Assembly: GCA_951406725.2 (NCBI GenBank)
Contig: OX597820.1
Coordinates: 2,914,001 to 2,978,000, forward strand
Reading direction: 5' to 3'
DNA: 64,000 bases
From: Octopus vulgaris
Lineage: Eukaryota
The notes under the pieces are model-generated. The model was not told the DNA's origin. It saw nothing but the letters and a program-made list of their open reading frames with translations, and ran no database searches. A program made the translations under genes and the position numbers. This document shows positions 50,508 to 61,773 of the stretch, piece by piece. Position 1 is the first letter of the stretch. Each line of letters starts with the position of its first letter.

Positions 50508-51785
<1,278 letters not shown>

Positions 51786-58860: not shown

Positions 58861-59357
58861 GGGTGATCAGCTGATTTTTGGAATAACGATCACTACTTCA
58901 TGTAGAAGGAAAAAAGCAAGGAATTGGATCACTGTTTTCTTCTGTGAAAGAATTGTTTTCTTTTTGTACAAAACATTTCATTTCATACATTTTTGCCCTC
59001 CGATTATTTTATTAATTAAAAAAAAACATTGGGTGTCGATAATTAATAAGTGCCGATTATTATATCGCATGACCCGGTGGTTATTGTGTTGCACTCGTAG
59101 GCCAGGTGGTACGTTGTGTTCCTGAGCAAAACACTTCACCTCACGTTGCCCTTTGATCGCTTCGGCACCTGACGTGTGGCACACCGTGTGCCTGTTCAGG
59201 CAAGGTCGATTCGATGGAAAGAATGAGCCAACGTACGGCACATACACTTGATCACTATAAACAAATCATTTGTTCAGATCGTTCGGCAAAAGCTGAACAT
59301 TTATACGCCATCCATCATTTATATTGCTACTCTATCACTTGAAATAGATTGTCTTTC

Positions 59358-60000
59358 GGATCTTTACGTTTTGACCGACAGATTTTTTTAATATTTTTTT
59401 GTAGCTAAACACTTTCAAACTTCAGACACTGGTAGAATGTGTCATATAAAACGTCTTTTACTCTTAGCATTTTTGAGAAAAACTTATATTTAGGAAGTTA
59501 TTTCACGTTAAAGTTCTCGTATTTCGGTAATTTCAACCAATCAATGACGTGTATTCAGCTGAATAAAATTACTGCCGTTGTTTATCAACAACAACTTCCG
59601 GCGGTGTATATTTCGTTTGTCACTGTTATTTATGACAACTCTAACCCTAAAACCCTCGCCCTCACCCTAACCCTAAAATCTTAACCCTAACCTTAAAACC
59701 AGTACAAACGCACGAACGATGTCATAAATAACAGTGACAAACGAGAAATACACCGCCGATAGTTGTTGTTGATAAACAACAGCAGTAATTTTATTCAGCT
59801 GAATACACGTCATTGATTGGTTGAGATTACCGAAATACGACAACTTTAAGGTGAAATAACTTCGTAAATATAAGTTTTTCTCAAAAATGTTAAGAGTAAA
59901 ACATGTTTTATATGACACATTCTACTAGTGTCCGAAGTTTGAAAGTGTTTAGTTACAAAAATTTTATTTCTTAAATCTGTCGGTTAAAAGGTAAAGATCC
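59358..60000. mobile_element. Non-autonomous fold-back DNA transposon (Merlin- or Mutator-like): ~280-bp TIRs, 8-bp TSD
   Basis: GGATC...GATCC termini; arms 59358-59637 and 59720-60000; TSD TGTCTTTC at 59350-59357 and 60001-60008; spacer contains TAACCC units. Confidence 0.88.
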
Positions 60001-61274
60001 TGTCTTTCTCTTATTAACGATTTTCCGTGAAGAGAATGCCATACCAAAAGTAATTTGAACACTAAGTGTTTTTACAAAATCGAACTTCAATCGCGTCGGA
60101 AACTTTTTCAATCTTATAAATTGAAGAGTTTCAGGTTTTAAAATAATTTTGCAGTTTATCTTTTAATTACTTCTTTACTTCCTGTTGAAGTTTATACAAA
60201 GACGAAGCTAAAATAGTCCAGAGTACTTTTATATATTTCTCGTGAAAAAGAATATATTTAATCTCTATTTAATGAATCAAAATCTCTACCGTTATTACGA
60301 AAGTTATTTGATATAGGCGTTGTCTATGTTTGTATATTATATACAGATATGTGTGTGTGTACAAACACATATATGTACACACATATATACACACATACAC
60401 GCATGCATACGTACATACAGAAAGTGAGAGAGAGAGAGAGAGGCGCAGGAATGGTTGTGTGGTAAGGAGTTTACTTCCCGATCACATAGGCCCGAGTTCA
60501 GTCCCACTGCGTGACACCTTGAACCGTGTGGTTGATGGAAATCACGAGGGAGTTGTATACGTGTGTGTGTTATCCCCTACCACCGGTTGAGAACTGATGT
60601 TGGTTTGTCTACGTCCCCGTAAATGAGCGGTTCGGCAAAAAATATCGATTCGTTCGACTAAAAACCTATCAAAGCAATGCTCCAGTGTGGTCATAAACCA
60701 TTACTGAAACAAGTAAAAGGTTATGTGGTAAGAAGCTTGCTTACCAACCACATGGTTCCGGGTTCAGTTCCACGGCGTGGCACCTTGGGCAAGTGTCTTC
60801 TACTATAGCCTCCAGCAGACCAAAGCCTTGTGAGTGGATTTGGTAGACGGAAACAGTAAGAAGCCTGTTGTATATATATATATGTGTGTATATATTTGTG
60901 TGTCTATGTTTACCCCCCCCCCCCGTCCCACCATCACTTGACAACCGATATTGGCGTGTTTACGTCCTCGTAACTTAGCGGTTCGTTAAAAGAGACCGAT
61001 AGAATAAGTACTCGGCTTACAAAGAATAAGTGGTGGGGTCGATTTGTTCGACTAAAGGCGGTGCTCCAGCATGGCTGCAATCAAATCATAAAAGAATATA
61101 TATATATACACATAAGGGACATTAGCCATTTGAATGTGGCTAGGGACAGGGCAGGGCGGTGGGGGTGATACTGATGCATTTAGCCCCAGGCGATCATCAA
61201 CGTCACCAGATAGGCTGACACCATCACGGTGTCCTCTATCCTGCAAAGGGAGATCATTCCCCGAAGAAGCGGAT

Positions 61275-61325
61275 GCCACACACGGACCCAGGTTTCAAGG
61301 TATTTGCCTATCGTCAACGTATGGC
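61275..61325 (-). ncRNA. Minimal type-I hammerhead ribozyme-like motif (C3>U variant)
   Basis: GCCAUACG-UUGACGA-UAGGCAAAUACCUU-GAAA-CCUGGGU-C-CGUGUGUGGC: stems I, II and III all formable, GUC cleavage triplet. Confidence 0.55.
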
Positions 61326-61459
61326 TGGTGACGTTGATGATCGCCTGGGGCTAAATGCATCAGTAACATCCCCACCGCCCTGCCCTGTCCCTAGCCACAT
61401 TCAAATGGCTAATGTCCCTTATGTGATGGAGCAGTTACTGTCTATATCTCGTTTAGAGA

Positions 61460-61490
<31 letters not shown>

Positions 61491-61496
61491 ATAAAA

Positions 61497-61556
<60 letters not shown>

Positions 61557-61729
61557 TTTTATGTGTTTCAGTCATTTGATTTGATTGCAGCCATGCTGGA
61601 GCACCGCCTTTAGTCGAACAAATCGACCCCACCACTTATTCTTTGTAAGCCGAGTACTTATTCTATCGGTCTCTTTTAACGAACCGCTAAGTTACGAGGA
61701 CGTAAACACGCCAATATCGGTTGTCAAGT

Positions 61730-61773
<44 letters not shown>

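What the first reader, a model, noticed from the sequence alone, without database searches (positions are those of the whole stretch)
61108..61470. Hairpin insert whose loop carries a near-complete hammerhead ribozyme
Seen: ~100-bp inverted arms (61109-61208 / 61326-61425) enclose a ~117-nt loop. The minus strand of 61275-61325 reads GCCAUACG UUGACGA UAGGCAAAUACCUU GAAA CCUGGGU C CGUGUGUGGC. That gives stem I (GCCA-UACG/CGUG-UGGC), core (C>U)UGAnGA, stem II AGG/CCU, GAAA, a self-complementary stem III ACCUGGGU and a GUC site (C17 = 61285). The insert sits in (TA)n with an apparent ATAAAAGAATATA duplication. Established: Penelope-like elements and non-coding retrozymes carry minimal type-I hammerheads with palindromic stem III that cleave as dimers. 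Inference: this is a non-autonomous, ribozyme-bearing retro-element or an inverted pLTR relic, possibly an undescribed cephalopod family.
Basis: partly seen in the sequence, partly recalled or inferred. Interest (0 to 1): 0.75.

Follow-up and report, generated by a model that had tools for sequence, protein, structure and literature searches.

The report
Wobble-core hammerhead retrozyme, Penelope-type insertion
This is one truncated copy of a small non-coding repeat whose 357-letter units carry a predicted self-cutting RNA with an unusual wobble pair in its core, likely pasted in by Penelope-type jumping-gene enzymes; such elements are already known, and only the core variant is unusual.

Summary
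The hammerhead motif and the 101-nt arms are real, but the arms are not element termini. The insert is one head-to-head, sub-unit-length copy of a young 357-nt non-coding tandem unit, and unit positions 214-314 simply occur twice. Across 45 loci, 24 of 26 two-armed copies pair one long with one short fixed end, mostly in (TA)n, and four show 12-nt target duplications: the published Penelope footprint.

U3 is not a private lesion: 46 exact family motifs read U3, none another base. Related hammerheads split C3-G8 503, U3·G8 232, U3-A8 265 and C3·A8 37. U3 copies form one clade in which U3·G8 spans lineages about 73% alike while the stems covary. The fold is Schistosoma-like type I, not the minimal Penelope type.

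Cleavage, circular RNA and the enzyme donor are unshown, and this copy is probably dead. Verdict: a non-LTR-retrozyme-like element with a core variant. The scan reported this clan before on other DNA (e1-8670037, e1-8669336).

The parts
61109..61325 (-). Reverse arm: unit positions 98-314 of the 357-nt repeat, ending at the family's short 3' end (61109)
   Evidence: 2 differences from the family majority
61325..61467 (+). Forward arm: unit positions 214-356, ending at the family's long 3' end; 61325 is a 1-nt overlap at the inversion junction
61426..61467 (+). Tail between the short and long ends (unit 315-356), present on one arm only
   Evidence: PLE tail described in PMC8557442 and PMC11167929
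61275..61325 (-). Type I hammerhead motif; its 5' distal stem-I strand is cut off by the inversion junction
61311..61317 (-). Core strand U3-U4-G5-A6-C7-G8-A9 (U3·G8 wobble instead of C3-G8)
61297..61310 (-). Stem II with U10.1·U11.1 mismatch, three pairs and loop CAAAUA
61286..61293 (-). Self-complementary stem III ACCUGGGU; predicted intermolecular duplex -9.8 kcal/mol, no stable hairpin alone
61285..61285 (-). C17, predicted cleavage 3' of GUC
   Evidence: cleavage inferred from hammerhead rules
61278..61284 (-). 3' strand of helix I (61284-61279, with a private A>G at 61281 giving U·G) and the invariant internal-loop U (61278)
61088..61099 (+). Candidate 12-nt target duplication, left copy
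   Evidence: 12-nt duplications at 4 other loci; here separated from the element by TA runs
61491..61502 (+). Candidate 12-nt target duplication, right copy
61468..61554 (.). (TA)n target tract, interrupted by the right duplication copy
60933..61088 (+). 3' part of a SINE-like repeat, left arm of a 156-nt perfect inverted duplication; not part of the element
61577..61732 (-). Inverted duplicate of 60933-61088; locus-specific and unexplained

Best explanation
The insert is a truncated head-to-head copy of a 357-nt non-coding tandem unit that carries a type I hammerhead motif with a family-fixed U3·G8 core, likely copied from RNA and pasted into (TA)n by a borrowed Penelope-like reverse transcriptase/endonuclease. 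Shown: the unit, the tandem arrays, two fixed 3' ends about 43-45 nt apart, one long plus one short end per two-armed copy, TA targeting, 12-nt duplications where readable, and stem covariation. Inferred mechanism: arrays are transcribed; neighbouring hammerheads pair through their palindromic stems III and would cut at GUC as dimers, giving unit-length and perhaps circular RNA. A PLE protein would nick both DNA strands 12 nt apart. Each nick would prime reverse transcription, one at the long and one at the short start site, and the two cDNAs would be joined head-to-head. The 101-nt arms are the stretch copied by both primers. This copy has one hammerhead, lacks unit 1-97 and the distal stem-I strand, and is probably inactive.
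For: Family of 97-100% identical copies with 357-nt periodicity. 24 of 26 two-armed loci are long+short, 0 long+long, 0 short+short; 55 of 71 3' ends abut TA runs against 8 of 19 5' ends (45 loci). 12-nt duplications at L004, L011, L116 and L143. The same layout recurs in sisters 58-75% alike. The layout, tail and TA bias are described for PLEs (PMC8557442; PMC3846280); a PLE protein cuts and extends both strands and starts at two sites bounding the tail (PMC11167929). Hammerhead pairs: 86 double-change cells against 36.0 shuffled, 0/500, with slid controls lower. Stem III stays 100% self-complementary through ACCUGGGU, ACCUAGGU, ACCCGGGU and ACUAUAGU. Ten units fold as circles with z -3.0 to -5.6. 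One guessed-RNA run holds a 387-nt contig, i.e. unit + 30. Three protein-coding PLE families exist in the genome.
Against: No cleavage or circularity was shown. C3 of the consensus core is missing and 10.1-11.1 is U·U. Hammerhead mutants did not affect insertion by the Anolis PLE in vitro, and 8 of 9 Xenopus retrozyme dimers did not cleave, so amplification does not prove activity. A U3-A8 to U3·G8 reversal appears in the tree, which fits weak selection on this pair. None of the three PLE families examined shares sequence with the unit. Units within an array differ about as much as between arrays (2.0-2.2% against 2.5%), only 16 of 138 multiply covered variant sites are shared by all units, and L016 is mosaic, so copying of a single circle is not supported. 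Covariation counts reflect a few subfamilies, not independent events.
Confidence: 0.8

Rival explanations
1. Same element and carrier, but the U3·G8 hammerhead is catalytically dead or negligible; the fold persists only as a binding or structural signal for the PLE protein and the RNA moves as an uncut multimer.
For: Non-consensus 3-8 pair and U·U at 10.1-11.1. Hammerhead activity was dispensable for PLE insertion in vitro. Mosaic arrays fit multimeric templates. A8 reverts to G8.
Against: The rest of the core is invariant in 37 of 37 family motifs covering position 3, apart from N7, and in a subfamily found without using the core. The stem III palindrome is kept through double changes inside the U3·G8 clade. 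A8 is common only with U3 (265 against 37). U10.1·U11.1 is reported as the best-tolerated mismatch.
Confidence: 0.35
2. The unit is the pseudo-LTR of an autonomous Penelope-like element that I did not find, and copies such as this one are stumps of it.
For: PLE pseudo-LTRs carry hammerheads and give inverted stumps. In L040 a Neptune-like endonuclease fragment runs straight into a C3 sister unit.
Against: Arrays are pure unit-to-unit tandems of up to about five units. No ORF adjoins any U3 locus scanned; the only direct junction is L040, and it did not recur among 29 other loci of its subfamily. The full-length PLEs examined carry different 3' ends.
Confidence: 0.12
3. A MITE-like or fold-back DNA element whose 101-nt arms are terminal inverted repeats, or an assembly artefact.
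For: Near-perfect arms and a second perfect inverted repeat outside them. No public contig bridged this junction in 4 runs.
Against: Arm length and junction position differ at each locus while the outer ends are fixed and unequal; 19 of 45 loci have no inversion at all. The arms differ at 2 positions.
Confidence: 0.03

Closest known systems
Animal non-LTR retrozymes (Cervera and de la Pena 2020, PMC7229834: passages and section 14 read; Li, Clavereau and Pollet, bioRxiv 10.64898/2026.07.22.740005: parts 1-3 of 5 read)
   Same: Non-coding tandem units of retrozyme size (mussel 350-390 bp; here 355-360), one type I hammerhead per unit, GC 45-47%, highly self-paired predicted circle, long target duplications, coexistence with PLEs.
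   Different: The core has U3·G8 or U3-A8 instead of C3-G8. Arrays are short and head-to-head with two fixed ends. Circular RNA and cleavage are not shown here. No cephalopod family appeared in the parts read.
Insertions of endonuclease-bearing Penelope-like elements (PMC8557442, PMC3846280: passages; PMC11167929: parts 1-2 of 4)
   Same: Partial tandems, inverted 5'-truncated copy, tail on one end only, (TA)n bias, target duplication near the reported 8-10 bp.
   Different: No ORF; the tail is about 43-45 nt against 30-40; the duplication is 12 nt; no sequence match to the three coding PLE families examined.
Schistosoma mansoni full-length type I hammerhead (PMC2632901: passages)
   Same: Internal loop in domain I, CAAAUA loop 2, conserved loop-1 U and loop-2 3' A that form the reverse Hoogsteen contact.
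   Different: U3·G8 core, U·U at 10.1-11.1, three-pair stem II, 8-nt palindromic stem III, one-nucleotide 3' side of the internal loop.
Natural 3-8 core variants: U3-A8 in Schistosoma PLE hammerheads (PMC4209133: parts 1-2 of 4) and others (PMC3088659: section 8); a U3/G8 saltern variant with a 2-nt insertion (PMC7151607: one passage)
   Same: Change at the 3-8 tertiary pair; U3-A8 occurs in sister subfamilies.
   Different: Here the uncompensated U3·G8 state, without insertion, is fixed in amplified animal subfamilies about 73% alike, alongside both Watson-Crick states in one genome.

Membership tests
Animal non-LTR retrozyme | Tandem units of about 170-400 nt | tested here: met
   357-nt unit in arrays of up to about five units; this copy itself is shorter than one unit
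Animal non-LTR retrozyme | No protein-coding capacity, GC below 50% | tested here: met
   No ATG ORF of 35 aa or more within a unit on the ribozyme strand; antisense frames vary 50-104 aa between units; GC 0.45-0.47
Animal non-LTR retrozyme | A type I hammerhead fold in every unit | tested here: met
   fold supported by covariation
Animal non-LTR retrozyme | Expression as unit-length linear and circular RNA | tested here: inconclusive
   Only contigs of runs guessed to be RNA; one 387-nt contig fits a circle or a multimer
Animal non-LTR retrozyme | Self-cleavage | not testable with these tools
   Needs in vitro transcription
Canonical type I hammerhead | Consensus core C3UGANG8A ... GAAA, UH site | tested here: not met
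   U3 in 46 of 46 exact family motifs, 0 with A, C or G; all other core positions are met
Canonical type I hammerhead | Paired 10.1-11.1 (usually G-C) | tested here: not met
   U·U here; G-C or G·U in sister subfamilies; U·U is a reported tolerated natural variant
Canonical type I hammerhead | 6-bp helix I, internal loop, loop I/II contact nucleotides | tested here: met
   Helix 90.8% paired with 3 double-change pairs; loop-1 U invariant and loop-2 A at least 90% in 40 rows; distal helix lost in the window copy
Canonical type I hammerhead | Short palindromic helix III allowing dimer folding | tested here: met
   Four sequence versions, 100% self-complementary in 16 distinct rows
Minimal PLE hammerhead (min-HHR) | Short helix I, long helix II (6-8 bp), extra base after A9, little or no helix III | tested here: not met
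   Helix I 6 bp plus distal helix, helix II 3-4 bp, 8-nt helix III
Penelope-like element, non-autonomous | Partial tandems, inverted 5' copy, tail on one end | tested here: met
   24 of 26 two-armed loci are long+short
Penelope-like element, non-autonomous | (TA)n target bias and target duplication | tested here: met
   55 of 71 3' ends; 12-nt duplication at 4 loci
Penelope-like element, non-autonomous | Sequence shared with the pseudo-LTR of an autonomous partner | tested here: inconclusive
   No match in loci of three PLE families; one chimeric junction, L040; search not exhaustive
Penelope-like element, autonomous | RT plus GIY-YIG ORF | tested here: not met
   No hit in the window or beside U3 loci
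MITE / TIR DNA transposon | Fixed, symmetric terminal inverted repeats | tested here: not met
   Arms vary per locus, ends are unequal, 19 of 45 loci are uninverted

The most novel reading that the evidence does not exclude
A large animal retrozyme lineage runs on a wobble-core hammerhead: U3·G8 is active in dimers, has persisted across subfamilies about 27% diverged, and this one genome preserves the whole compensatory path C3-G8 to U3·G8 to U3-A8 and back as amplified subfamilies, a natural series for measuring how much cleavage a retrozyme needs.
Probability: 0.45. Interest if true: 0.55.

Novelty: new variant of a known kind. Interest (0 to 1): 0.33.

Why it matters
The element type and its Penelope footprint are published, and this scan has met them many times. 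What remains useful is a set of closely related natural subfamilies differing at the 3-8 core pair, at 10.1-11.1 and in the stem III palindrome. Comparing their cleavage rates with their copy numbers would test an open question: whether hammerhead cleavage matters for PLE-driven retrotransposition. The descriptors I read (CUGANGA core, paired 10.1-11.1) and Rfam miss these motifs, so retrozyme censuses are likely to undercount them.

Tried and rejected
Rfam scans found no hammerhead in the window, a full unit or a C3 sister: uninformative.

No RNA holder was listed on record. Contigs of guessed-RNA runs cover parts of the unit: X1 22, X4 19 and X10 21 of 30 bins; X2 and X3 do not cover the hammerhead part. 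No contig bridged the window's junction in 4 runs. None of this is evidence on expression or on the assembly.

Search for the enzyme donor: Neptune-like, Poseidon-like and a young C-terminal-endonuclease family show no shared sequence; clade labels are from recalled motifs. ORFs near L158, L168, L183 and L111 lie beyond microsatellites or in unrelated orientation. Pfam gave RVT_1 for L091 and nothing for the other two proteins.

Single-circle copying was tested by within-array variants, with a mixed result. Flank inverted duplication as a family feature was rejected: near-identical only here among 38 loci. CpG decay as the source of U3-A8 was rejected for most copies, since the listed A8 cores nearly all have U7. 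CpG decay may explain many C3·A8 hits, many of which read C7-A8.

Three papers on 3-8 pair exchanges and dimeric PLE hammerheads were not held, so the rate cost of C3U is not cited.

Full report
Observation. The arms (101 nt, 2 mismatches) and the minus-strand motif are present as described, with U3 at 61317 and C17 at 61285. A loose core pattern occurs once in the window and in none of 100 shuffles. Rfam misses it, but also misses a C3 sister. A 156-nt, 100% identical inverted repeat encloses the whole insert.

What the insert is. The loop sequence found 40 scored matches at 97-100% identity among 1,512 first-look candidates in the 2.8-Gb own genome. The loci are arrays of a 357-nt unit. The window copy is unit 98-314 on the minus strand joined, with a 1-nt overlap at 61325, to unit 214-356 on the plus strand. 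The arms are therefore the part present in both halves, and unit 1-97 is absent. The exact subfamily is small (46 motifs) and young (2.5% between copies). It belongs to a larger clan whose sisters are 58-95% alike over 222 nt.

Insertion footprint. I classed 45 non-overlapping U3-clan loci chosen (overlapping duplicates and one unrelated hit, L131, left out). Of these, 26 are two-armed: 24 have one long end (unit 344-357) and one short end (305-318), 2 have a short and an irregular end, and none has two alike. The other 19 are one-armed. TA runs abut 55 of 71 3' ends and 8 of 19 5' ends. Four two-armed loci with informative flanks show a 12-nt duplication. The window's candidate duplication also fits 12 nt but is separated from the element by TA runs, so it is plausible rather than shown. 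Partial tandems, inverted 5' copies, a one-sided tail and TA bias are described for PLEs (PMC8557442, passages; PMC3846280, passages). The Anolis PLE protein cuts and extends both strands and starts at two sites that bound the tail (PMC11167929, parts 1-2 of 4). Two-nick, two-primer insertion is my inference from these.

The hammerhead. In 40 aligned motifs (picked by me from the 63 distinct contexts) the structure has 86.7% paired cells and 86 double-change cells against 36.0 in shuffles (0/500), with slid controls lower. Stem III and the 3-8 pair were preselected by the search pattern there, and related rows inflate the counts. The fold has a 6-bp helix I, an internal loop with an invariant U, a distal helix and loop II CAAAUA, the loop of the Schistosoma hammerhead (PMC2632901, passages). 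It is thus the canonical type found in retrozymes (PMC7229834, passages and section 14), not the minimal PLE type (PMC4209133, parts 1-2 of 4). Ten natural units fold as circles with z -3.0 to -5.6 against 40 shuffles each, with helix I extended into a rod. The window copy has lost that extension and carries a U·G in helix I.

The core variant. Position 3 is U in 46 exact family motifs and A, C or G in none, and in 37 of 37 similarity-selected motifs that cover it (38 rows). With stem III ACCYRGGU the genome holds C3-G8 503, C3·A8 37, U3-A8 265 and, by subtraction, U3·G8 232 (controls 0, 1, 2 and 4 for the U3 total); a few listed hits are unrelated sequences. A further subfamily, found through a 3' motif with 606 hits and not through the core, has U3·G8 in all 27 rows that keep the core strand (33 rows from 22 partly overlapping loci, 6 cut by junctions) and a different palindrome, ACUAUAGU. 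With it, stem III stays fully self-complementary through double changes at 2 of 4 pairs. In a 58-row tree (63 loci picked, 58 passed the filters) U3 and C3 copies are separated by a 100/100 branch. Both U3 lineages, 72-75% alike, contain U3·G8, and U3-A8 is nested in one of them with an apparent reversal. The root is a midpoint and the bootstrap had not settled, so the order C3-G8, U3·G8, U3-A8 is the simplest reading, not a tested one, and it rests on few events. U3-A8 and U10.1·U11.1 are published natural variants (PMC4209133; PMC3088659, section 8), and a U3/G8 saltern variant with an insertion is mentioned in PMC7151607 (one passage). Searches returned no paper on a fixed U3·G8 animal family, and searches 15 and 91 none on an octopus retrozyme. 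The library lacks most subscription papers, and I did not open supplements, where such motifs may be listed.

Against activity. Hammerhead mutants did not change insertion by the Anolis PLE in vitro. Only 1 of 9 Xenopus dimers cleaved (bioRxiv 10.64898/2026.07.22.740005, parts 1-3 of 5). I put the chance that U3·G8 dimers cleave usefully at about 0.55.

RNA and template. No holder is on record as RNA. A guessed-RNA run has a 387-nt contig, equal to one unit plus 30, as a closed cycle of 31-letter words would give; a circle and a tandem transcript both explain it. Within arrays, units differ by 2.0-2.2%, close to the 2.5% between arrays. Some variants are shared across opposite arms (L004, L009, L020, L030), but L016 is mosaic. 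Copying of one circle is neither shown nor excluded.

Enzyme donor. The genome holds at least three coding PLE families. One is young and shows its own two fixed ends and head-to-head pairs. None shares sequence with the unit in the loci examined. One old C3 copy is fused to a Neptune-like endonuclease fragment (L040), and that junction did not recur in 29 other loci. The donor is unidentified.

Verdict. It works like an animal non-LTR retrozyme moved by PLE machinery (0.8). Because the consensus C3 and the 10.1-11.1 pair were tested and not met, I file it as a variant of that kind. Earlier scan notes describe the same clan on other DNA, including several versions of the core pair and a 12-bp duplication; I read them after my own tests. 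Interest 0.33.

Noticed in passing
window 60933-61088 and 61577-61732: Perfect 156-nt inverted duplication of a SINE-like 3' part; 65 other copies reach at most 91% (median 87%). The right copy continues with about 14 nt that are missing on the left, and 61491-61562 is a perfect palindrome centred in (TA)n. Likely a recent fold-back at the TA tract, or an assembly artefact.
   Followed up: partly
window about 59345-60010: MITE-like element with inverted arms of at least 138 nt (94%) and a loop of AACCCT-like repeats.
   Followed up: no
window 50511-51637: About 740 nt of TA-rich repeat followed by a pure 389-nt poly(A) run, possibly low-quality assembly.
   Followed up: no
L250:3170-5506 (G000:C5): Young PLE family with a 778-aa open frame, C-terminal GIY-YIG-like domain, 11,781 first-look candidates, two fixed 3' ends about 135 nt apart and a hammerhead-like motif with a long stem II in its 3' region; no Pfam hit.
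   Followed up: partly
L091:4050-4090 (G000:C8): The Neptune-like family carries a different hammerhead-like motif in its 3' region, with an apparent A6U change and a 4-nt palindromic stem III.
   Followed up: no
L040:746-1760 (G000:C1): Neptune-like ORF fragment joined directly to the start of a C3-type unit, perhaps a template switch.
   Followed up: partly
L274-L277 (G000:C1:94320560-94327727): Four copies of a U3·G8 sister unit at about 1,385-nt spacing, apparently carried within a larger tandem duplication.
   Followed up: no
L027 right flank: Short inverted repeat centred on a (TA)n run beside another family copy, resembling the window's fold-back on a small scale.
   Followed up: no
run X16 laid on L006:2129-2842: A run labelled as another organism holds the family with a G8-to-A variant in 5 contigs, so the clan spans more than one labelled organism.
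   Followed up: no
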